Of a DNA stretch of 64,000 bases, positions 1 to 50,052 are shown one piece after another. This DNA comes from Escherichia coli (lineage in GTDB: Bacteria > Pseudomonadota > Gammaproteobacteria > Enterobacterales > Enterobacteriaceae), in the NCBI RefSeq assembly GCF_044647545.1, contig NZ_CP172818.1. The stretch is one strand, 5' to 3'. The notes below the pieces were generated by a model. The model saw nothing but the letters and a program-made list of their open reading frames with translations, did not search any database and was not told the DNA's origin. A program made the position numbers and the translations under genes. Position 1 is the stretch's first letter; the number at the start of each line of letters is the position of its first letter.

Positions 1-69
1 GACAACTTCGATAAATACACCGACACCCCAGCGGGTGCCGCGCTGGTAGCGGCTGGTCCTAAGCTGTAA
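1..69 (+). CDS. pck: phosphoenolpyruvate carboxykinase (ATP), 3' end only
   Basis: In-frame translation of 1-66 gives DNFDKYTDTPAGAALVAAGPKL then TAA; matches the Pck C-terminus from memory; pck lies upstream of envZ in E. coli. Confidence 0.8.
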   Translation, partial: DNFDKYTDTPAGAALVAAGPKL

Positions 70-88
70 TCAGCTGATATCTCATTGA

Positions 89-119
89 CCCCTTATCCAA
101 ACGGATAAGGGGTTTTTTT
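89..119 (+). terminator. rho-independent terminator downstream of pck
   Basis: Perfect inverted repeat ccccttatcc/ggataagggg with 4-nt loop, followed by a T7 run. Confidence 0.7.
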
Positions 120-300
120 ATCTAATTAGCTACCAATATGTACACGTACACTTATAATTATCAATAGACCGCAGGATGCATTATTTCACCTTTATTGAAC
201 TACAAAGATTTAGCAAACGCCGCCATTATTGCTACCTGATGATATTCCCTTTTCAGGAACTACTCATTCAAAATCCCACCGCCGACATTACGCAGCACAG

Positions 301-720
301 GCAGTTTTAAAAAAATTCCCCGGAACCCCCCGAAAGGGGAAAGGCACGGAAAATTTTAAAAAAACAAAAACCCAACAATTTCCTTTATTTAACCAAAAAA
401 AAAAAAAAAAAAATAAAAAAAAAAAAAAAAAAAAGGAAAAACTCCCCGGGAGCGCTTTTGAACCCCACAAAACCCCCCAGGCCGAAAAAACAAAAGGGGA
501 GAAAAAAAAAAAAAAAAAAAATTTTCCTCCTCTCCCCCCCGCAGGAAAAAAAAAGGGAAAGAAAAAAAAAGGAAGAAAAACCGCCCACACCGAGCCCCCC
601 CATTCAAAAAAAAGAAAAAAAAACGGCGGGAAACAGGCCGCCGGCAGTCCCCCCGGGGGGGCCCGGAAAAAAAAAAGAAAAAACCCCCCCCCCCCCCCCC
701 AGAGCCCCACAAAAAATTTG
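301..720. other. anomalous homopolymer-rich low-complexity block (non-coding; probable artefact or foreign insert)
   Basis: Runs of about 20 A, 16 C and 7 G; only K-rich (+) and F-rich (-) pseudo-ORFs; composition unlike flanking E. coli sequence. Confidence 0.75.
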
Positions 721-760
721 CAAGCGAATCCTTTCATTATCAATCAATTGAAAACAATCT

Positions 761-793
761 AAAAACGGGAGGCACCTTCACCTCCCGTTTTAT
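761..793. terminator. bidirectional hairpin terminator at the 3' end of envZ
   Basis: Inverted repeat gggaggc/gcctccc (stem gggaggcaccttcacctccc) flanked by an A-run on one side and a T-run on the other, immediately downstream of the envZ stop. Confidence 0.6.
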
Positions 794-2862
<2,069 letters not shown>

Positions 2863-23057: not shown

Positions 23058-24284
23058 TTATCCTTTTACACACACCACCTGACGCAGGGTGTAGATAACT
23101 TCCACCAGATCGCTTTGTGCCGCCATCACCGCGTCGATATCTTTATACGCCATCGGGATTTCGTCGATCACTTCGGCATCTTTACGGCATTCCACATGCG
23201 CGGTGGCACGAATTTGATCTTCCACGCTGAACAGTTTTTTCGCTTTAGTACGGCTCATTACCCGCCCGGCACCGTGGCTGCACGAACAGAACGACTCTAC
23301 ATTTCCCAGCCCACGGACGATAAAGCTTTTCGCTCCCATCGACCCTGGAATAATTCCATATTGACCAGCACGCGCAGACACCGCGCCTTTACGCGTCACG
23401 TAGATCTCTTCACCAAAGTGCTGTTCTTTTTGCACATAGTTGTGGTGACAGTTGATCTCTTCCATCGCCAGCGTTTGCGGCTGCCTTACCGTTTTCTGCG
23501 TAATGCTCTGCAACGCCGTTACCACGTTTTCCATCATCGCATCGCGGTTAAGGCTGGCAAAAAGCTGCGCCCAGGCCACCGCTTTCAGGTAATCGTCAAA
23601 GTATTCCGTACCTTCCATAAAGTACGCCAGATCACGCGACGGCAACGTTTCAAGTGTTTCCTGCATCTCTTTTTGCGCCAGATCGATAAAATAAGTTCCG
23701 ATGGCGTTACCAATTCCGCGTGAACCGGAGTGCAGCATAATCCACACCTGGTCCGACTCATCAAGGCAGATTTCAATAAAGTGGTTACCCGTTCCCAGCG
23801 TTCCCAGATGTTTATAGTTGTTAGTGTTAAGGAAACGTGGATATTTTTGCGTTAACCACTGATAACCGGCTTCCAGCTCAGCCCATTTCGCATCGACGTT
23901 AACAGGCGGATTTTCCCATGCGCCTTTATCACGTTTACAACGTCCGGTAGTACGCCCGTGCGGCACGGCAGCTTCAATCGCCTGACGCAGCTCCGCCAGG
24001 TTTTCCGGCAGGTCTGCCGCCGTTAACGCGGTACGCAGCGCGTTCATTCCACAACCGATATCTACCCCCACCGCCGCCGGAATAATCGCCCCTTTGGTTG
24101 GGATCACGCTACCAATGGTGGAACCTTTACCCAGATGTACATCAGGCATTACCGCAATATGTTTGAAAATAAACGGCATCTTCGCCGTATTTATCAGTTG
24201 CTGACGCGCATCGTCTTCTACCGGTACGCCTTTGGTCCACATTTTTACCGGGACATTTTCAGTGGTCAGTAATTCGTAATTCAT
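23058..24284 (-). CDS. rtcB: RNA ligase RtcB
   Basis: 408-aa ORF MNYELLTTENVPVKMWTKGVPVEDDARQQLINTAKMPFIFKHIAVMPDVHLGKG.... Confidence 0.95.
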   Translation of the reverse strand: MNYELLTTENVPVKMWTKGVPVEDDARQQLINTAKMPFIFKHIAVMPDVHLGKGSTIGSVIPTKGAIIPAAVGVDIGCGMNALRTALTAADLPENLAELRQAIEAAVPHGRTTGRCKRDKGAWENPPVNVDAKWAELEAGYQWLTQKYPRFLNTNNYKHLGTLGTGNHFIEICLDESDQVWIMLHSGSRGIGNAIGTYFIDLAQKEMQETLETLPSRDLAYFMEGTEYFDDYLKAVAWAQLFASLNRDAMMENVVTALQSITQKTVRQPQTLAMEEINCHHNYVQKEQHFGEEIYVTRKGAVSARAGQYGIIPGSMGAKSFIVRGLGNVESFCSCSHGAGRVMSRTKAKKLFSVEDQIRATAHVECRKDAEVIDEIPMAYKDIDAVMAAQSDLVEVIYTLRQVVCVKG

Positions 24285-24321
24285 TTTGTTTTTCTCTTTT
24301 CGTTGTTTGCTGTCCTGATAA

Positions 24322-24338
24322 TTGCAACCGTCGTGCCA
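24322..24338 (-). promoter_or_regulatory. sigma54 (-24/-12) promoter of rtcBA
   Basis: Minus strand reads TGGCACGacggTTGCA, an exact match to TGGCAC-N5-TTGC, about 40 bp upstream of rtcB; the divergent gene encodes the sigma54 activator RtcR. Confidence 0.65.
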
Positions 24339-24471
24339 GAAAATTAAATAAGCAGCTTAATTTTTTAATTCATTGTTTTTAATAGATTAAATCTTTACGT
24401 CCGTAAACGGAGATTTCCCGCAAAGCCAATTCGCCGATAATGAAATATCGTCTTTTATAAGGATATCTAAG

Positions 24472-26070
24472 ATGCGTAAAACAGTGGCTTTTGGCTTTGT
24501 CGGCACCGTACTGGATTATGCCGGGCGCGGCAGTCAGCGCTGGTCGAAATGGCGTCCGTCACTCTGTCTATGCCAGCAAGAATCGTTAGTCATCAATCGA
24601 CTGGAATTGTTGCACGACGCCCGCTCACGCTCGCTGTTTGAAACGCTTAAACGCGATATCGCCAATGTTTCGCCAGAAACAAAAGTGGTGGGCGTTGAGA
24701 TTGAACTGCATAACCCGTGGGATTTCGAAGAGGTTTACGCCTGCCTGCATGATTTCGCCCGTGGTTACGCGTTCCAGCCAGAAAAAGAAGACTATTTAAT
24801 TCACATCACCACCGGTACCCACGTCGCGCAGATTTGCTGGTTTCTGCTGGCAGAAGCGCGTTATCTACCCGCCCGGTTGATACAATCTTCACCACCGCGC
24901 AAAAAAGAACAACCGCGCGGCGCAGGTGAAGTGACGATTATCGATCTCGATTTAAGCCGTTATAACGCCATCGCCAGCCGCTTTGCCGAGGAACGCCAGC
25001 AAACCCTCGATTTCCTCAAATCCGGCATTGCCACGCGTAACGCCCACTTCAACCGCATGATTGAGCAGATCGAAAAAGTGGCGATCAAATCCCGCGCACC
25101 GATCCTGCTCAACGGCCCAACCGGTGCGGGAAAGTCGTTTCTGGCACGACGCATCTTCGAGTTAAAACAGGCGCGGCATCAGTTTAGCGGCGCGTTTGTG
25201 GAGGTGAACTGTGCCACTCTGCGCGGCGATACCGCCATGTCAGCGCTGTTTGGTCATGTGAAAGGCGCGTTTACCGGGGCGCGGGAGTCGCGGGAAGGAT
25301 TATTACGCAGCGCCAACGGCGGGATGTTATTTCTTGATGAGATTGGCGAACTGGGCGCAGACGAACAGGCAATGCTGCTGAAAGCCATTGAAGAGAAAAC
25401 CTTTTACCCGTTTGGCAGCGATCGCCAGGTGAGTAGCGATTTTCAGCTTATCGCCGGAACGGTGCGCGATTTGCGCCAACTGGTTGTCGAAGGCAAATTT
25501 CGCGAAGACCTGTACGCACGGATTAATCTCTGGACTTTCGCTCTGCCGGGGCTACGCCAGCGCCAGGAAGATATTGAACCTAACCTGGATTATGAAGTGG
25601 AGCGCCACGCCTCACTTACCGGCGACAGCGTGCGTTTTAACACCGAAGCGCGGCGCGCCTGGCTGGCCTTTGCAACATCATCTCAGGCGGCATGGCGCGG
25701 TAACTTTCGCGAGCTTTCTGCCAGCGTCACGCGAATGGCAACCTTTGCCACTAGCGGACGCATCACTCTGGAAGTGGTTGAAGATGAGATAAACCGTCTG
25801 CGCTATAACTGGCAGGAGAGCCGCCCTTCCGTGCTTACACAGCTACTGGGCGCTGAAGCGGAAAACATCGACCTCTTTGATCGACTGCAACTGGAACACG
25901 TTATCGCTATCTGCCGTCAGGCAAAGTCGCTTTCCGCTGCCGGACGCCAGCTTTTTGACGTTTCGCGCCAAGGGAAAGCCAGCGTCAACGACGCGGATCG
26001 GCTACGCAAATACCTGGCGCGTTTTAATCTGACGTGGGAAGCCGTGCAGGATCAGCACAGCTCCAGTTGA
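24472..26070 (+). CDS. rtcR: sigma54-dependent transcriptional activator RtcR
   Basis: 532-aa [33 protein letters not shown]...; AAA+ motifs GPTGAGKS and GAFTGA. Confidence 0.93.
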
Positions 26071-26810
26071 ATATGGTGGTCCGTCAGCACCTGCATCACG
26101 CTTACTGGCGGCGGGGCGTCGGTGTAGACGGCATCTACCATGCTGATACTGCCCATATTGACCATCGCGTTACGGCCAAATTTCGAGTGATCGACAACCA
26201 GCATAACGTGGCGCGAGTTCTCAATAATGGCGCGTTTGGTGCGAACTTCGTGGTAATCGAACTCCAGCAGCGAACCGTCGCTATCGATGCCACTAATCCC
26301 CAGAATGCCGAAATCAAGGCGGAACTGGGAGATAAAATCGAGCGTTGCTTCGCCAATGATCCCACCATCGCGGCTGCGTAATTCGCCACCGGCGAGAATG
26401 ATGCGAAAATCTTCTTTTACCATCAGCGTGTTAGCGACGTTGAGATTGTTGGTCACAATGCGCAAATTGCTGTGATTAAGCAGCGCGTGCGCCACCGCTT
26501 CCGGCGTGGTGCCGATATCGATAAACAGCGTCGAGCCATTGGGAATTTGCTCCGCCACTTTGCGGGCGATGCGCTCTTTTTCTTCGGTCTGGGTGGCCTT
26601 GCGATCGTGCCACGGCGTATTAACCGAACTGGAAGGCAGCGCCGCACCGCCATGATGGCGCAGGATCAGGTTTTGCTCTGCCAGCTCGTTGAGATCGCGG
26701 CGAATAGTCTGCGGGCTAACGGAGAAGTGCTCCACCAGCTCCTCGGTACTGACATAACCCTGCTGTTTAACCAGTTCGATAATACCGTTGTGACGTTGTG
26801 TTTGTTTCAT
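26052..26810 (-). CDS. glpR: glycerol-3-phosphate regulon repressor (DeoR family)
   Basis: MKQTQRHNGIIELVKQQGYVSTEELVEHFSVSPQTIRRDLNELAEQ...; start trimmed to MKQTQ; 3' end overlaps rtcR convergently by 19 bp. Confidence 0.93.
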   Translation of the reverse strand: MKQTQRHNGIIELVKQQGYVSTEELVEHFSVSPQTIRRDLNELAEQNLILRHHGGAALPSSSVNTPWHDRKATQTEEKERIARKVAEQIPNGSTLFIDIGTTPEAVAHALLNHSNLRIVTNNLNVANTLMVKEDFRIILAGGELRSRDGGIIGEATLDFISQFRLDFGILGISGIDSDGSLLEFDYHEVRTKRAIIENSRHVMLVVDHSKFGRNAMVNMGSISMVDAVYTDAPPPVSVMQVLTDHHIQLELC

Positions 26811-26826
26811 TTCTAAATCCCTGGAA

Positions 26827-27669
<843 letters not shown>

Positions 27670-27701
27670 TTATTCCACACAAAAGGGGACAGTATAAAGC
27701 G

Positions 27702-28106
<405 letters not shown>

Positions 28107-28165
28107 TTATACATATCACTCTAAAATGTTTTTTCAATGTTACCCAAAGCGCGATTCTTTGCTAA

Positions 28166-28183
28166 TATGTTCGATAACGAACA
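28166..28183 (+). promoter_or_regulatory. GlpR operator in the glpD promoter
   Basis: atgttcgataacgaacat is a perfect palindrome, 35 bp upstream of the glpD start; GlpR regulates glpD. Confidence 0.5.
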
Positions 28184-28217
28184 TTTATGAACTTTAACGA
28201 AAGTGAATGAGGGCAGC

Positions 28218-29723
28218 ATGGAAACCAAAGATCTGATTGTGATAGGTGGCGGCATCAATGGTGCTGGTATCGCGGCAGACGCCGCTGGACGCGGTTTATC
28301 CGTGCTGATGCTGGAGGCGCAGGATCTCGCTTGCGCGACCTCTTCCGCCAGTTCAAAACTCATTCACGGTGGCCTGCGCTACCTTGAGCACTATGAATTC
28401 CGCCTGGTCAGCGAGGCGCTGGCTGAACGTGAAGTGTTGCTGAAAATGGCTCCGCATATCGCCTTCCCGATGCGTTTTCGCCTGCCACATCGTCCGCATC
28501 TGCGCCCGGCGTGGATGATTCGCATTGGTCTGTTTATGTACGATCATCTGGGTAAACGCACCAGCCTGCCGGGATCAACCGGTTTGCGTTTTGGCGCAAA
28601 CTCAGTGTTAAAACCGGAAATTAAGCGCGGATTCGAATATTCTGACTGTTGGGTAGACGACGCCCGTCTGGTACTCGCCAACGCCCAGATGGTGGTACGT
28701 AAAGGCGGTGAAGTGCTTACTCGTACTCGTGCCACGTCTGCTCGCCGCGAAAACGGCCTGTGGATTGTGGAAGCAGAAGATATCGATACCGGCAAAAAAT
28801 ACACCTGGCAGGCGCGCGGCCTGGTGAACGCCACCGGCCCGTGGGTGAAACAGTTCTTCGACGAGGGGATGCATCTGCCTTCGCCTTATGGCATTCGCCT
28901 GATCAAAGGCAGCCATATTGTGGTGCCACGCGTGCATACCCAGAAGCAAGCCTACATTCTGCAAAACGAAGATAAACGTATTGTGTTCGTGATCCCGTGG
29001 ATGGACGAGTTTTCCATCATCGGCACCACCGATGTGGAATACAAAGGCGATCCGAAAGCGGTGAAGATTGAAGAGAGTGAAATCAATTACCTGCTGAAAG
29101 TGTATAACGCGCACTTTAAAAAACAGCTTAGCCGTGACGATATCGTCTGGACCTATTCCGGTGTGCGTCCGCTGTGTGATGATGAGTCCGACTCGCCGCA
29201 GGCTATTACCCGTGATTACACCCTTGATATCCATGATGAAAACGGCAAAGCCCCGCTGCTGTCGGTATTCGGCGGTAAGCTGACCACCTACCGCAAACTG
29301 GCGGAACATGCGCTGGAAAAACTGACGCCGTATTATCAGGGTATTGGCCCGGCGTGGACGAAAGAGAGCGTGCTGCCGGGAGGTGCCATTGAAGGCGACC
29401 GCGACGATTATGCCGCTCGCCTGCGCCGCCGTTACCCGTTCCTGACTGAATCGCTGGCACGTCACTACGCACGCACTTACGGCAGCAACAGCGAACTGCT
29501 GCTCGGCAATGCGGGAGCGATAAGCGACCTCGGGGAAGATTTCGGTCATGAGTTCTACGAAGCGGAACTGAAATACCTGGTGGATCACGAATGGGTCCGT
29601 CGCGCCGACGATGCCCTGTGGCGTCGCACAAAACAAGGCATGTGGCTAAATGCGGATCAACAATCTCGTGTGAGTCAGTGGCTGGTGGAGTATACGCAGC
29701 AGAAGTTGTCGCTGGCGTCGTAA
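28218..29723 (+). CDS. glpD: aerobic glycerol-3-phosphate dehydrogenase (FAD)
   Basis: METKDLIVIGGGINGAGIAADAAGRGLSVLMLEAQDLACATSSASSKLIHGG... (FAD-binding GGGING); start trimmed to METKD. Confidence 0.95.
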   Translation: METKDLIVIGGGINGAGIAADAAGRGLSVLMLEAQDLACATSSASSKLIHGGLRYLEHYEFRLVSEALAEREVLLKMAPHIAFPMRFRLPHRPHLRPAWMIRIGLFMYDHLGKRTSLPGSTGLRFGANSVLKPEIKRGFEYSDCWVDDARLVLANAQMVVRKGGEVLTRTRATSARRENGLWIVEAEDIDTGKKYTWQARGLVNATGPWVKQFFDEGMHLPSPYGIRLIKGSHIVVPRVHTQKQAYILQNEDKRIVFVIPWMDEFSIIGTTDVEYKGDPKAVKIEESEINYLLKVYNAHFKKQLSRDDIVWTYSGVRPLCDDESDSPQAITRDYTLDIHDENGKAPLLSVFGGKLTTYRKLAEHALEKLTPYYQGIGPAWTKESVLPGGAIEGDRDDYAARLRRRYPFLTESLARHYARTYGSNSELLLGNAGAISDLGEDFGHEFYEAELKYLVDHEWVRRADDALWRRTKQGMWLNADQQSRVSQWLVEYTQQKLSLAS

Positions 29724-29787
29724 ATTAACGTAAGGTGGCCAGGTCAGATTTCAATCTGACCTGAGACTGATGATAAACAAAAAAACT

Positions 29788-29886
29788 GCCTGATGCGCTA
29801 CGCTTATCAGGCCTACGTGGTTTATGCAATATATTGAATTTGCATGATTTTGTAGACAAAATAAGGCGTTCACGCAGCATCCGGCA
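29788..29886. repeat. REP/BIME element (two inverted REP units) downstream of glpD
   Basis: gcctgatgcgctacgcttatcaggcctac and, in opposite orientation, gtagacaaaataaggcgttcacgcagcatccggcat. Confidence 0.75.
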
Positions 29887-29929
29887 TAAACAAAGCGCAC
29901 TTCGTCAACAATCTGACCTACTTTTTGAT

Positions 29930-30223
29930 TCAAGGAATTACCGCAAAGCCCACGCAATCATACCCAACGTAACAAAACTCAGACACATTACCCACTCGCC
30001 CAGAGAAAAATAGCAGTAATGCGCCCAGCGTCAGCATAAAGACGTTGAGTAGAAGATAAATTGTTGGTGTAAAGAGTAAATTGCAAAACTCAAGAATAGC
30101 GGCAAGCCCGGCCCCCAGCATGGCAACAACCGCTGCCAAAAATTGCGCCAGTATGGGGATGCCAAAAAAAGTCATTACCAGCGAGGTCAAAATCCATTTT
30201 CCGTTTTGCATTATTCTTTCCAT
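29930..30223 (-). CDS. yzgL: small membrane ORF (yzgL-like), coding status uncertain
   Basis: 97-aa hydrophobic ORF between glpD and glgP, where yzgL lies in K-12; I cannot verify the protein sequence from memory. Confidence 0.4.
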   Translation of the reverse strand: MERIMQNGKWILTSLVMTFFGIPILAQFLAAVVAMLGAGLAAILEFCNLLFTPTIYLLLNVFMLTLGALLLFFSGRVGNVSEFCYVGYDCVGFAVIP

Positions 30224-30339
30224 TCTTGCTGAATGGCGAAATTATACTCCCCGATAACCCTCGCCCCCTCTGGACACTTTTCCTAAATAAAGGCGAAAAA
30301 AAACGGGACCTTTTGGCCCCGTTCTGTTTTTTAGCGAAC

Positions 30340-41869: not shown

Positions 41870-41874
41870 CGTTC

Positions 41875-42000
<126 letters not shown>

Positions 42001-42062
42001 ACGGATAGTTTTTACGATAAAGTACCTGGTTTGCTTCACAACTACCGGCGCGAACAAAAAAA

Positions 42063-47480: not shown

Positions 47481-48305
47481 ATGAGTGAGATAGTAATACG
47501 CCACGCAGAAACACGCGATTACGAGGCCATCAGGCAGATTCACGCCCAGCCGGAGGTGTATTACAACACGCTACAGGTGCCTCATCCTTCAGAACAAATG
47601 TGGCTGGAACGACTCACCGCTCGCCCTGGCATCAAGCAGTTAGTCGCCTGTATTGATGGAATCGTCGTAGGCCATCTCACCATTGACGTGCAACAACGCC
47701 CACGCCGCAGTCATGTTGCCGACTTTGGTATCTGTGTCGACTCCCGTTGGAAGAACCGCGGCGTCGCCAGCGCCCTGATGCGAGAGATGATTGAAATGTG
47801 CGACAACTGGTTGCGGGTAGATCGTATTGAGCTAACGGTGTTCGTCGATAACGCGCCAGCAATTAAGGTCTATAAAAAATTTGGCTTTGAGATTGAAGGG
47901 ACTGGCAAGAAGTACGCGCTGCGTAAGGTGAATCGGGAGATCATGGGGTGCGCAACTTACGATGTGTGGGTAGGTGCTGCGGCTCCTCCGGCCCCGCCCG
48001 CTACGGCGGGCTACGGCGCGCGGCCGCCGCCGCAAACGGCGCCGCACGAATCGGGCCGCGGGGCCGCCTGCCCGCTCCGCGCCCCGGCGGTCCCGCGCAC
48101 GGGCAGGGCACCGCGCGGGGCCAGCGCGGGCGCGCAGCGGTTACGCGACCCCGGGGGGTGCGCGTTCGGTGACGCACGGGCGACGCGGGGGCAGGCCGCG
48201 CACCCGACGGGGGGGACGGGGCGGCCGCGGCCCGCCGGGGCCCAGCGCGACGGGGGGCCCGACGGGCCGGCGGGGCGAGCCCTCACCTACCGGGAGAGGG
48301 CTTAA
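47481..48305 (+). CDS. yhhY: GNAT N-acetyltransferase YhhY with a disrupted 3' end (148 native residues fused to an anomalous Ala/Gly/Arg/Pro-rich tail)
   Basis: MSEIVIRHAETRDYEAIRQIHAQPEVYYNTLQVPHPSEQMW...GTGKKYALR is recognisable as YhhY (about 162 aa in K-12); from 47925 the frame runs into ~80% GC low-complexity sequence and stays open to 48305; the native C-terminus is absent. Confidence 0.6.
   Translation: MSEIVIRHAETRDYEAIRQIHAQPEVYYNTLQVPHPSEQMWLERLTARPGIKQLVACIDGIVVGHLTIDVQQRPRRSHVADFGICVDSRWKNRGVASALMREMIEMCDNWLRVDRIELTVFVDNAPAIKVYKKFGFEIEGTGKKYALRKVNREIMGCATYDVWVGAAAPPAPPATAGYGARPPPQTAPHESGRGAACPLRAPAVPRTGRAPRGASAGAQRLRDPGGCAFGDARATRGQAAHPTGGTGRPRPAGAQRDGGPDGPAGRALTYRERA
47925..48305. 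other. anomalous ~80% GC low-complexity block replacing the yhhY 3' end and the yhhY-ggt spacer
   Basis: About 380 bp dominated by gcg/ggc/ccg repeats; open in several frames on both strands as expected for stop-poor GC-rich sequence; flanking E. coli DNA is about 50% GC. Confidence 0.75.
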
Positions 48306-48309
48306 GATA

Positions 48310-50052
48310 TTAATACCCCGCCGTTAAATCATCCACCGAGCGCGAGTCGGATGCACCGTACAACTCACCATCCGACCCAACCATAATGCTTTGCGTACTG
48401 CCCATCGCCTCTTTCAGCGCCACTTTCTGACCTTTTGCTTCCAGCAGCTTGAGCGTATCCGGGCTAAACCCTTTTTCGACACGCAGCTCGTCCGGCAACC
48501 ACTGATGGTGGAAACGTGGCGCATTGGTCGCTTCGGCGACATTCATACCACAATCGATGCTATTCACCACCATTTGCAGCACGGTAGTGATGATCCAGCT
48601 CCCGCCAGGGCTACCGGTAACCAGCCAGGTTTTACCGTCTTTCACCACAATGGTGGGTGACATCGACGACAGCGGGCGTTTATTCGGCCCGACCGCGTTG
48701 GCGTCACCACCCACCAGCCCGTAAACGTTCGGTACGCCCGGTTTGGCGGAGAAATCATCCATCTGGTTATTGAGCAAAATACCGCTCTCGCCCGCGACAA
48801 TGCCCGTCCCGAAGGTGGTGTTCAGCGTATAGGTCACCGCCACCGCGTTACCGTCTTTATCCACCACTGAGTAATGGGTAGTTTGATTACTCTCATAAGG
48901 CGCAAGCTTGCCGGGGCGAATTTCGCTGGATGGCTTCGCTTTATTGATATCGATTTGATCGGCAATAGATTTGGCATAGGCTTTATTGGTCAGCGCCTGC
49001 CACGGTACTTTGACAAAATCCGGATCGCCAAGATATTCCGAGCGGTCGGCGTAGGCGTATTTCTCAGCTTCTGCCATGATTTGCATCGCGTCGGCACTGC
49101 CAAAGCCGTACTTCTTCATATCGAAGTTTTCCAGGATATTGAGGATCTGCACGATATGAATCCCACCGGAAGATGGCGGTGGCATCGAGTAAACCTGATA
49201 CCCGCGATATTCGCCGCTAATCGGTGTACGTTCGACCGCTTTATACGCCGCTAAATCTTCTTTAGTGATCAAGCCACCGTTTTTCTGCATCTCCTGGGCA
49301 ATCTGTTCCGCTATCGTGCCTTTGTAGAATTCGTCCGGGCCGTTTTCGGCAATCATCTCCAGGCTCTTTGCCAGGTTCGCCTGCACCAGCTTGTCACCCT
49401 TTTTCAGCGGCGCGCCCTCTTTCCAGAAGATAGCCTTGCTGTTTTCGTGATTCGGCAATACTTCGCTACCGTAGGTTTTGAGATCGTCAGCCAACGCGTC
49501 GTTAACGATAAAACCATCGCGTGCCAGTTTAAACGCCGGTTGCACCACTTTGTTCAACGGCATGGTGCCGTACTTCTCCAACGCCAGCGAGAAACCTGCT
49601 ACCGTACCGGGCGTACCAGAAGCCAGATGCGAAGTGAGTGATTTTTTGCTGTCCGGGTTACCCTGATCATCAAGGAACATATCGCGGGTCGCTTTGGCGG
49701 GTGCCATTTCGCGGAAATCGATAGCCGTGGTATTGCCATTTTTCGAGCGGATTAACATAAAACCACCGCCGCCCAGATTCCCCGCCTGCGGATGCGTTAC
49801 CGCCAGCGCGTAGCCCACTGCCACGGCAGCATCAACGGCATTCCCGCCCTCCTTGAGGATATCCACCCCCACCTGAGTGGCAGTAGCATCTACAGACGCC
49901 ACCATCCCCTGTTTCGCGCGTACCGGATGAAAGACATCTTCCTCCACGCCGTAAGAAACAGGAGACGGCGCAGGTGGCGCGGCTACCGTACTAAAACAAC
50001 TTCCTGTGAACAGAGCAGCAATGGCCACCCGGCGTAAAAACGTCGGTTTTAT
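48310..50052 (-). CDS. ggt: gamma-glutamyltranspeptidase (periplasmic)
   Basis: MIKPTFLRRVAIAALFTGSCFSTVAAPPAPSPVSYGVEEDVFHP... (signal peptide); start trimmed to MIKPTF (580 aa). Confidence 0.95.
   Translation of the reverse strand: MKPTFLRRVAIAALFTGSCFSTVAAPPAPSPVSYGVEEDVFHPVRAKQGMVASVDATATQVGVDILKEGGNAVDAAVAVGYALAVTHPQAGNLGGGGFMLIRSKNGNTTAIDFREMAPAKATRDMFLDDQGNPDSKKSLTSHLASGTPGTVAGFSLALEKYGTMPLNKVVQPAFKLARDGFIVNDALADDLKTYGSEVLPNHENSKAIFWKEGAPLKKGDKLVQANLAKSLEMIAENGPDEFYKGTIAEQIAQEMQKNGGLITKEDLAAYKAVERTPISGEYRGYQVYSMPPPSSGGIHIVQILNILENFDMKKYGFGSADAMQIMAEAEKYAYADRSEYLGDPDFVKVPWQALTNKAYAKSIADQIDINKAKPSSEIRPGKLAPYESNQTTHYSVVDKDGNAVAVTYTLNTTFGTGIVAGESGILLNNQMDDFSAKPGVPNVYGLVGGDANAVGPNKRPLSSMSPTIVVKDGKTWLVTGSPGGSWIITTVLQMVVNSIDCGMNVAEATNAPRFHHQWLPDELRVEKGFSPDTLKLLEAKGQKVALKEAMGSTQSIMVGSDGELYGASDSRSVDDLTAGY

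What the first reader, a model, noticed from the sequence alone, without database searches (positions are those of the whole stretch)
120..760. About 640 bp of unexpected sequence, with a homopolymer-rich core, inserted between the pck and envZ terminators
Seen in sequence: between the pck terminator (89-119) and the envZ hairpin (761-793) lie about 180 bp of unrecognised normal-complexity DNA (120-300) that degrade into about 420 bp of homopolymer runs (about 20 A, 16 C, 7 G). The only ORFs are K-rich on the plus strand and F-rich on the minus strand, which is what poly-A/poly-T gives. Established knowledge: in E. coli K-12 the convergent pck-envZ spacer is short (of order 100 bp from memory) and holds only terminators. 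Inference: this is an insertion or overwrite, most likely an assembly or base-calling artefact or synthetic sequence. A biological origin is not excluded but nothing gene-like is present.
Basis: partly seen in the sequence, partly recalled or inferred. Interest (0 to 1): 0.55.

Follow-up and report, generated by a model that had tools for sequence, protein, structure and literature searches.

The report
Garbled toxin-antitoxin cassette: assembly artefact
The odd homopolymer-rich stretch between pckA and envZ is not a biological element but a smeared, mis-built copy of an ordinary two-gene toxin-antitoxin cassette carried at this spot by about a quarter of E. coli strains, so it is a sequence-quality problem and not a discovery.

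Summary
Window 300-716 is extreme low-complexity DNA (A20, A20, A19, C17, G7 runs), whereas the longest run elsewhere in the window is 9.

It is not junk inserted into a K-12-like spacer. Window 70-762 aligns, in order, with a RelE/ParE-family toxin plus NadS-family antitoxin cassette. This cassette sits intact between pckA and envZ in 1325 of 5426 complete E. coli genomes.

Outside a few patches the window is 100.000% identical to strain FDAARGOS_497. Inside the patch the cassette is accurate at its left end, degrades progressively from about 146, is smeared by about 300, and becomes perfect again at 717.

An unrelated strain in RefSeq (BS-04) has a similar but non-identical smear at the same place. 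The two smears are 71-77% alike while the flanks are 97% alike. They are therefore independent products of one artefact, not inherited sequence.

The window also has the short, K-12-like structure at the other large FDAARGOS_497 insertions while keeping FDAARGOS_497 SNPs. No other genome shows this combination. Two further junk patches lie at 41.9 kb and 47.9 kb.

A simulation of left-anchored, unaligned stacking of noisy reads reproduces the smear better than the true sequence does.

Verdict: consensus artefact, most likely reference-templated. Biological interest is very low.

The parts
1..69 (+). 3' end of pckA
   Evidence: Identical to FDAARGOS_497 pckA.
87..119 (+). pckA terminator hairpin plus T-run. 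It is the cassette-type allele and differs from the K-12 spacer.
   Evidence: Terminator scan. Identical to FDAARGOS_497. K-12 has an unrelated 45-nt sequence here.
120..299 (+). Promoter region and 5' part of the RelE/ParE-family toxin gene, carrying progressively more errors. The first error is at 146. The toxin ATG is destroyed by a G deletion at 185.
   Evidence: Alignment A1. Difference list: 19 errors in 146-321, including 11 G deletions and 3 G-to-A changes. Identity to truth per 100 nt is 0.97, then 0.87.
300..716 (+). Smear core: a low-pass-filtered, shortened image of the rest of the toxin gene, the 58-nt spacer and most of the NadS antitoxin gene.
   Evidence: Colinear with truth at z = 17.6 against a run-shuffled null, and 60-72% identical. 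Runs up to A20 and C17. Reproduced by the left-anchored stacking simulation.
717..762 (+). Error-free last 46 nt of the NadS antitoxin gene, including its TAA stop at 760-762.
   Evidence: A 100.000% match to FDAARGOS_497 starts at 717 and runs for 22,420 nt. In that genome nadS ends 46 nt after this point.
762..791 (-). envZ terminator hairpin
   Evidence: Terminator scan. Shared with K-12.
794..2146 (-). envZ, intact
   Evidence: ORF list and annotation of homologous loci.
41870..42060 (+). Second junk patch of the same kind at yhgN-gntU. About 130 nt are A-rich smear (A30 run, no G). They are followed by a noisy copy (46 of 56 matches) of the island-free spacer. The closest genome has a 3475-bp DprA/RecQ island here instead.
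47927..48277 (+). Third junk patch: 344 nt that are about 80% G+C. It replaces the last ~50 nt of yhhY plus a 30-nt spacer (64 nt in the closest genome).
   Evidence: It is absent from all 5426 E. coli genomes and has no plasmid match.
29991..30001 (.). Junction where a 2840-bp block present in FDAARGOS_497 is missing. The window has the K-12-type short structure with FDAARGOS_497-type SNPs.
   Evidence: The best full-length match in 5426 genomes is only 93.2%.

Best explanation
The sequenced strain is an ST648-like E. coli, essentially identical to FDAARGOS_497. It really carries the common RelE/ParE-toxin plus NadS-antitoxin cassette between pckA and envZ. The deposited sequence was not built de novo across this locus. 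It looks like a consensus laid onto a template that lacks the strain's larger insertions, i.e. a K-12-like short structure.

Reads spanning the site carry the ~0.7-kb cassette as one long insertion relative to the template. A pileup-type consensus stacks those inserted bases column by column from the left anchor, without re-aligning reads to each other. Small read indels make the reads drift out of register with distance. The first ~30-100 nt therefore come out right, and isolated bases are lost next (mostly G here). After that each column reports the locally commonest base, which gives long A, C and G runs that still follow the true sequence in blurred form. At the next template-anchored column (717) the sequence becomes perfect again.

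Shown: the identity of the underlying cassette, its colinearity with the smear, the non-inheritance of the smear, the template-like structure of the window, and the fit of the stacking simulation.

Inferred: the actual software, template and read type.

My confidence that the region is an artefact of some kind is about 0.95. The confidence value of 0.68 is for this specific mechanism.
For: (1) The window is 100.000% identical to FDAARGOS_497 over 717-23136 and 23127-30001, and at least 99.92% identical over the rest. It breaks only at discrete sites.

(2) That genome and 1324 others have an intact 318-nt toxin gene and 297-nt nadS gene here. The toxin matches Pfam RelE PF06296. The antitoxin matches NCBIfam NadS NF041265 at 75 bits, above the cutoff of 60.

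(3) The smear is colinear with the true cassette, z = 17.6 for the window and 9.7 for BS-04.

(4) BS-04, which differs by ~3% in the flanks, has a similar smear with the same recovery point. The two smears are only 71-77% identical.

(5) At every large insertion of FDAARGOS_497 relative to K-12, the window has the K-12-type short form or junk while keeping FDAARGOS_497 SNPs. These insertions are IS1 (768 bp), the 2840-bp block and the 3475-bp island. Small indels (up to 11 nt inserted, up to 65 nt deleted) are reproduced exactly.

(6) That combination is unique among 5426 genomes. The junction at ~29995 has a best full-length hit of 93.2%. The short yhgN-gntU form never occurs with these flanks.

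(7) Template-type alleles persist next to patch 3. Of 12 substitutions in 48322-48597, 8 switch to the K-12/BS-04 allele. After that there are zero differences for 15.4 kb.

(8) BS-04 is likewise colinear with K-12 except for garbled inserts.

(9) In simulation, left-anchored stacking of 30 reads with ~1.5% error gives runs of 18-21 and mean run length 2.1-2.4 (observed 2.19), with a left-to-right decay in identity. It matches the window better (277 +/- 16) than the true sequence does (231), than right-anchored stacking (157 +/- 19) or than shuffled truth (-10 +/- 21). The same holds for BS-04: 232 +/- 13 against 151 and 142 +/- 14.
Against: No reads or assembly metadata were available, so the pipeline is inferred.

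The simple simulation does not reproduce the T depletion (0.15 observed against 0.25 simulated) or the ~90-nt shortening.

Patch 3 is G+C junk longer than the true sequence, and patch 2 is garbled from its first bases. Stacking alone does not explain either.

A 768-bp IS1 and the 2840-bp block are absent cleanly, with no smear. This requires either that the strain lacks them or that the software drops longer insertions.

Two of the 8 retained 'template' alleles match BS-04 but not K-12 MG1655, so the template is not MG1655 itself.

The literature I read shows reference-as-draft consensus recovering 100-bp insertions, but it does not describe this smear.
Confidence: 0.68

Rival explanations
1. 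The genome was assembled de novo from long reads, and polishing or basecalling failed locally. Possible causes are low or mixed coverage, a non-clonal culture containing a second E. coli strain that lacks these inserts, or repeated rounds of polishing that degraded a poorly aligned region.
For: All garbled patches lie at presence/absence-variable sites. Information from a second haplotype appears in patch 2 and to the right of patch 3. The rest of the sequence is very accurate.
Against: A de novo assembly of a majority ST648-like strain should keep that strain's structure. Here the 2.8-kb and 3.5-kb inserts are missing while SNPs stay 100% ST648-like, a combination seen in no other genome. The left-anchored polarity and the identical recovery point in two strains fit a coordinate-anchored pileup better than a random local failure.
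Confidence: 0.2
2. The gap was closed with an unclipped, low-quality read tail (for example the end of a Sanger read). Loss of resolution in such a tail gives broad, homopolymer-like calls.
For: The decay is gradual from left to right with an abrupt return to perfect sequence, G drops out first, and the image is blurred but colinear.
Against: The same smear with the same end point occurs in an independent 2024 assembly. There are three patches with different compositions, including a G+C-only one. The template-like structural anomalies elsewhere in the window are not explained.
Confidence: 0.04
3. The patches are synthetic, for example gaps filled by a generative or neural sequence model that recalls common E. 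coli sequence imperfectly and collapses into repeats.
For: The patches collapse into degenerate poly-A, homopolymer or G+C-rich sequence. There is a pull towards population-common alleles next to patch 3, and the majority (island-free) spacer is recalled in patch 2.
Against: No such step is known in standard bacterial pipelines (my own knowledge). The smear tracks the strain's true cassette over ~570 nt and is reproduced by a plain read-stacking model with no learned prior. A PGAP-annotated RefSeq isolate record shows the same thing.
Confidence: 0.04
4. The sequence is real: a decayed or hypermutated toxin-antitoxin locus that has accumulated long homopolymer tracts. Alternatively it is a locus whose DNA is chemically modified or heterogeneous, so that it cannot be read.
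For: Two strains show it at the same locus. This data cannot formally exclude a locus-specific sequencing problem with a biological cause.
Against: The two smears are 71-77% alike against 97% for the flanks, so they are not inherited. The cassette is intact in 1325 genomes, including clones identical to this window. Runs of A20, A30 and C17 are unknown in the rest of the window and in 72 kb of the reference, where the maximum is 9. Similar junk occurs at two unrelated sites in the same window.
Confidence: 0.02

Closest known systems
RelE/ParE-family toxin + NadS-family (HTH, HigA/MqsA-like) antitoxin cassette at pckA-envZ, e.g. WP_000493756.1 / WP_000650976.1 in E. coli FDAARGOS_497
   Same: Same chromosomal position and the same cassette-type pckA terminator. 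The first ~75 nt and last 46 nt are identical, and nucleotide similarity is colinear throughout.
   Different: In the window neither gene is intact. The toxin start codon is lost, the region is 94 nt shorter (window 1-716 against 1-810 in FDAARGOS_497), and 28-40% of the core bases differ. No ORF matches a protein family.
The same smear in RefSeq record NZ_CP172819.1 (E. coli BS-04, Indonesia, broiler stool)
   Same: Same locus, the same left-to-right decay and the same recovery point at TTTGCAAGCG. Composition is similarly A-rich, and the rest of the region has a K-12-like structure.
   Different: It is a different strain, with ~3% divergent flanks. Smear details differ (71-77% identity, longest run 32, more T). 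PGAP annotated a 'hypothetical protein' (WP_400165612.1) on its degraded part.
Pileup or reference-as-draft consensus of long reads (medaka-type or per-column counting pipelines; OnRamp, bioRxiv 10.1101/2022.03.15.484480; PMC10039527)
   Same: [quoted passage not shown] My simulation of that behaviour reproduces the smear.
   Different: The papers report correct recovery of insertions up to 100 bp and do not describe smears for ~700-bp insertions. Whether such a tool was used here is unknown.
Natural homopolymer or simple-sequence contingency loci (phase-variable tracts)
   Same: Only the presence of long mononucleotide runs.
   Different: Natural tracts are single, sit in a promoter or ORF, and are conserved in position among relatives. 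Here there are more than 10 runs of three different bases within 420 nt, none is present in any close relative, and they overwrite two genes.

Membership tests
Type II toxin-antitoxin cassette (RelE/ParE toxin + NadS antitoxin) at pckA-envZ | Located between the pckA stop and the envZ terminator, with cassette-type flanks | tested here: met
   Window 70-145 and 717-762 are identical to the cassette allele of FDAARGOS_497. K-12 has an unrelated 45-nt spacer.
Type II toxin-antitoxin cassette (RelE/ParE toxin + NadS antitoxin) at pckA-envZ | Intact ~105-aa toxin ORF with a RelE fold | tested here: not met
   The true protein hits PF06296. In the window the ATG is destroyed by a G deletion at 185. 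The remaining 44-aa ORF and the 177-aa K-rich ORF hit no family.
Type II toxin-antitoxin cassette (RelE/ParE toxin + NadS antitoxin) at pckA-envZ | Intact ~98-aa NadS-family HTH antitoxin ORF downstream | tested here: not met
   The true protein hits NF041265 at 75 bits, above the cutoff of 60. Only its last 46 nt are intact in the window.
Type II toxin-antitoxin cassette (RelE/ParE toxin + NadS antitoxin) at pckA-envZ | Nucleotide homology along the whole cassette | tested here: met
   The degraded copy is colinear with the cassette: z = 17.6 against a run-shuffled null, with 324 matches over a 451-nt core.
Consensus/assembly artefact (unaligned long-insertion smear on a template) | The sequence is absent from near-identical genomes, which carry an ordinary sequence there | tested here: met
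   FDAARGOS_497 is 100.000% identical on both sides and has the intact cassette. Only 1 of 5426 genomes (BS-04) covers the patch, at 82.6%.
Consensus/assembly artefact (unaligned long-insertion smear on a template) | Independent assemblies give similar but non-identical garbling, far more divergent than their flanks | tested here: met
   Window and BS-04 cores are 71-77% identical while the envZ flank is 96.9% identical (1356 of 1400).
Consensus/assembly artefact (unaligned long-insertion smear on a template) | Register loss grows from one anchor, with abrupt recovery at the other | tested here: met
   Identity to truth per 100 nt is 0.97, 0.87, 0.63, 0.63, 0.62, 0.53, 0.48, then 100% from 717. 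The left-anchored simulation beats the right-anchored one, 277 against 157.
Consensus/assembly artefact (unaligned long-insertion smear on a template) | Other template-type anomalies in the same record: large inserts missing, template alleles retained near breakpoints | tested here: met
Consensus/assembly artefact (unaligned long-insertion smear on a template) | Raw reads contradict the deposited bases, and the assembly method is template-based | not testable with these tools
   No reads or record metadata are available. Exact-protein look-ups did not find the source record.
Natural phase-variable homopolymer tract | The tract is conserved in position among related strains and embedded in a functional promoter or ORF | tested here: not met
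   No related genome has any of the tracts, and they replace two intact genes.

The most novel reading that the evidence does not exclude
The cassette DNA in these strains has a real, locus-specific property that systematically defeats long-read sequencing, so the smear marks genuine biology and not a pipeline fault. Candidates are dense non-canonical modification or damage, or cell-to-cell structural heterogeneity such as excision or turnover of the toxin-antitoxin cassette.
Probability: 0.03. Interest if true: 0.6.

Novelty: not a real feature. Interest (0 to 1): 0.05.

Why it matters
There is nothing new here biologically. The locus is an ordinary accessory toxin-antitoxin cassette.

It matters for data quality. 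At least one RefSeq 'complete genome' (BS-04) and the source of this window contain smeared or missing accessory DNA at insertion sites. In this window that affects a TA cassette, a 3.5-kb DprA/RecQ island, a 2.8-kb PstS-family block and the 3' end of yhhY. The automatic annotation of BS-04 includes a spurious 'hypothetical protein' on the smear.

Such records would bias pangenome, defence-island and TA-system surveys. They would also inject nonsense ORFs into protein databases.

A simple signature could be used to flag them. It consists of low-complexity patches at variable sites with a one-sided decay in accuracy, together with the structure of one lineage and the SNPs of another.

Tried and rejected
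(1) Chemical or enzymatic deamination (G-to-A and T-to-C on one strand). Rejected: converting the truth that way does not give the observed sequence, and patch 3 is G+C-rich.

(2) Two-colour or phasing-type short-read blur. Rejected because the decay zone (~570 nt) exceeds short-read lengths.

(3) Patch 2's left part being the start of the DprA/RecQ island with G's dropped. The alignment score (4.5) equals the null mean (4.5, sd 1.8), so I dropped the claim.

(4) A remnant cassette allele explaining the shared recovery point at 717. No partial-cassette allele exists; hits either cover at least 80% of the cassette or only the envZ end.

(5) Patch 3 as a real high-G+C insertion or a REP cluster. 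It is in none of 5426 E. coli genomes, has no plasmid match, and has no meaningful tandem structure.

(6) The 12 substitutions right of patch 3 as a natural recombinant allele. No genome exceeds 97.3% identity there. The 4 unique changes are all non-synonymous at conserved Ggt residues: R-to-W, Y-to-C and P-to-S twice.

(7) Finding the source record or its method. A literature search for the BS-04 project found nothing relevant. Exact-protein look-ups with the yhhY-fusion and the variant Ggt were not on record.

(8) Literature describing this smear. I found only general descriptions of reference-as-draft and pileup consensus.

Full report
**What is in the sequence**

Window 1-69 is the end of pckA. 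A terminator hairpin with a T-run follows at 87-119. envZ lies on the minus strand at 794-2146 behind its own hairpin at 762-791.

Between them, 120-299 has normal complexity. From about 300 to 716 the sequence collapses into mononucleotide runs: A19, A20, A20, C17, G7 and several A8-A10. In this stretch 40-75% of bases lie in runs of 4 or more, against 10% or less in the flanks. Trinucleotide entropy drops to 3.61 bits against a window mean of 5.43, sd 0.20. Outside this and two other patches the longest run in the window is 9, the same as in 72 kb of a reference genome.

**What it corresponds to**

A megablast of window 1-1000 against 5426 complete E. coli genomes shows that K-12 is the wrong comparator. 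K-12 has a 75-nt intergenic spacer whose sequence is unrelated. Many genomes instead carry, between pckA and envZ, a RelE/ParE-family toxin gene (318 nt) followed by a nadS antitoxin gene (297 nt). Using that cassette as the query, 1325 of 5426 genomes have it essentially complete, at 97.7-100% identity.

The toxin (105 aa) matches Pfam RelE PF06296 at E = 1e-5. The antitoxin (98 aa) matches NCBIfam NadS NF041265 at 75 bits, above the cutoff of 60, and has an HTH domain.

A three-way alignment shows the following:
- Window 70-145 is identical to the cassette allele of strain FDAARGOS_497.
- Single-base losses start at 146 and become denser. There are 19 errors up to 321, of which 11 are G deletions and 3 are G-to-A changes. 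The toxin ATG is destroyed at 185.
- The rest is a blurred image of the two genes.
- At 717 the sequence becomes perfect again.

Examples of the blur: truth GCTCCACAAATTCCACCATGGCCGAAATGTCAACGGAGG reads AACCCCACAAAACCCCCCAGGCCGAAAAAACAAAAGGGGAG, and truth TTATTTGCTGATCTTCTTGCCAGCGCAGAAGAAATGG reads ATTTTCCTCCTCTCCCCCCCGCAGGAAAAAAAAAGGG.

The colinearity is highly significant. The alignment score is 100, against -58 +/- 9 for run-shuffled versions of the smear, which gives z = 17.6.

**Why it is not inherited sequence**

Outside a handful of sites the window is the same clone as FDAARGOS_497. There are 0 differences in 717-23136 (22,420 nt) and 0 in 23127-30001, and identity is at least 99.92% over the rest. 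That genome has the intact cassette.

One other genome, BS-04 (RefSeq NZ_CP172819.1), covers the patch, at 82.6% identity. It is a different strain: its flanks are 97% identical to the window and it is much closer to K-12 (98.1-99.3%). It shows the same kind of smear, with the same left-to-right decay and the same recovery point.

The two smear cores are only 71-77% identical to each other. Real cassettes differ by at most 2.3% between strains. Two strains cannot have inherited a sequence that is about ten times more divergent than everything around it yet tracks the same template in the same blurred way. They are two independent outputs of one process acting on the same true sequence.

**The rest of the window points to a template-based consensus**

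The window breaks from FDAARGOS_497 at five sites:

| Site | Window position | FDAARGOS_497 | Window |
|---|---|---|---|
| a | 120-716 | intact TA cassette | garbled cassette |
| b | ~23130 | IS1 insertion | absent |
| c | ~29995 | 2840-bp block with PstS-family genes | absent |
| d | 41870-42060 | 3475-bp DprA/RecQ-helicase island | ~130 nt of A-rich smear (A30, no G) plus 58 nt |
| e | 47927-48277 | 64 nt | 344 nt of G+C junk |

Compared with K-12, the window is colinear through sites b, c and d. One alignment block runs from 14154 to 41871. Small differences from K-12 are reproduced exactly as in FDAARGOS_497: insertions up to 11 nt and deletions up to 65 nt. The window therefore has the SNPs and small indels of one lineage and the large-scale structure of another.

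That combination is not natural in the available data:
- The short-form junction at 29995 has a best full-length match of 93.2% among 5426 genomes, although each half is 100% FDAARGOS_497.
- The 58 nt at 42003-42060 are a noisy copy (46 of 56 matches) of the island-free spacer. Its 12-mer CACAACTACCGG does not occur in 72 kb of FDAARGOS_497. Genomes with that spacer never have the window's flanks.
- To the right of patch 3 there are 12 substitutions within 276 nt, then none for 15.4 kb. Eight of them switch to the K-12/BS-04 allele. The four unique ones are non-synonymous at conserved Ggt residues. No genome matches this stretch better than 97.3%.

BS-04 behaves the same way. It is colinear with K-12 except for the garbled cassette and a garbled, truncated insert at the PstS site.

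The simplest reading is that both records are consensus sequences built on a K-12-like template that lacks these inserts.

**Mechanism of the smear**

Suppose reads carry the cassette as a ~0.7-kb insertion relative to the template. Suppose also that the consensus is taken column by column over inserted bases stacked from the left anchor, with no re-alignment between reads. Read indels then desynchronise the stack in proportion to distance.

I simulated this with 30 reads of the true 691-nt insert, with errors added, left-aligned, and majority vote per column. At ~1.5% read error the output shows:
- an accurate start;
- progressive decay (identity per 100 nt 1.0, 0.91, 0.91, 0.72, 0.63, ...; observed 0.97, 0.87, 0.63, 0.63, 0.62, 0.53, 0.48);
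- A-runs of 18-21 at the same places as in the window;
- mean run length 2.1-2.4 (observed 2.19);
- 75-87% identity between independent realisations (observed 71-77% between window and BS-04).

Alignment scores of the observed smears against each model:

| Compared with | Window | BS-04 |
|---|---|---|
| Left-anchored simulation | 277 +/- 16 | 232 +/- 13 |
| True sequence | 231 | 151 |
| Right-anchored simulation | 157 +/- 19 | 142 +/- 14 |
| Stack of block-shuffled truth | -10 +/- 21 | not run |

The model explains the polarity, the blur, the shared recovery point and the partial similarity of the two smears.

It does not explain the depletion of T (0.15 observed, 0.25 simulated) or the ~90-nt shortening. 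It also does not explain why patch 2 is wrong from its first bases, or the G+C junk of patch 3. These may be tool-specific (for example a neural polisher, or handling of clipped reads), but I could not test that.

Papers on reference-as-draft nanopore consensus confirm that such pipelines exist and track insertions between template bases. They report correct recovery only up to 100 bp and do not describe this failure.

**Alternatives**

- A local failure within a de novo assembly, from low or mixed coverage, remains possible (about 0.2). It does not explain the template-like structure.
- An unclipped capillary-read tail would give a similar blur. It does not fit an independent 2024 record, three patches of different composition, or the structural anomalies.
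- A generative fill-in would explain the repeat collapse and the pull to common alleles. It is unnecessary given the stacking simulation, and I know of no such step in standard pipelines.
- A real decayed locus, or a locus-specific DNA property that defeats sequencing, is not formally excluded without reads. I put it at about 2-3%.

**Verdict**

The finding is a real anomaly in the data but not a real feature of the organism. Underneath lies an ordinary, common RelE/ParE-NadS toxin-antitoxin cassette.

It was wrong that it is an insertion into a K-12-type spacer with nothing gene-like behind it.

Biological interest is very low. The practical value is as a quality flag for this record and for RefSeq BS-04.

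Noticed in passing
window 41870-42060: Second junk patch at yhgN-gntU. About 130 nt are A-rich smear (A12, A30, no G). They are followed by a ~82% copy of the island-free spacer allele, although the near-identical genome FDAARGOS_497 has a 3475-bp island here.
   Followed up: yes
window 47927-48277: Third junk patch: 344 nt that are about 80% G+C. It overwrites the last ~50 nt of yhhY and creates a 274-aa fusion ORF. It is absent from all 5426 E. coli genomes and from plasmids. Its origin is unexplained by the stacking model.
   Followed up: partly
window 48322-48597: Twelve substitutions relative to FDAARGOS_497 within 276 nt of ggt, then none for 15.4 kb. Eight match the K-12/BS-04 allele. 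Four are unique and change conserved Ggt residues (R-to-W, Y-to-C, P-to-S twice). They are likely residual template alleles plus low-support errors next to patch 3.
   Followed up: yes
window 29991-30001: A 2840-bp block (a hypothetical gene plus two PstS-family genes in FDAARGOS_497) is missing at a K-12-type junction, but with FDAARGOS_497 SNPs. The best full-length match in 5426 genomes is only 93.2%.
   Followed up: yes
window 23127-23136: The IS1 copy that interrupts rtcB in FDAARGOS_497 is absent and the target site is undisturbed. This could be a genuine strain difference or another dropped insertion; the two cannot be distinguished without reads.
   Followed up: partly
L004 (BS-04, NZ_CP172819.1) 185-346 and 30040-30300: The RefSeq record BS-04 carries a PGAP 'hypothetical protein' (WP_400165612.1) called on the degraded toxin region. 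It also has a second smear (A20-like and T14-like runs) in the PstS-family variable region, annotated there as a frameshifted partial gene.
   Followed up: partly
L005 565-3863 (strain E1) = L007 45638-48936 (FDAARGOS_497): A two-gene island sits between yhgN and gntU: a DprA-like DNA-processing protein and a RecQ-family helicase with overlapping ORFs. About 1650 of 5426 E. coli genomes appear to have a large insert at this site. It may be a defence or DNA-processing module; I did not investigate it.
   Followed up: no
window 120-175 (L002 1620-1683): The intact cassette has the toxin gene first and the antitoxin second (HigBA-like order). Upstream lie a TATAAT-containing leader and a GTACAC-GG-TACAC repeat that could be the operator. 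I did not analyse it further.
   Followed up: no
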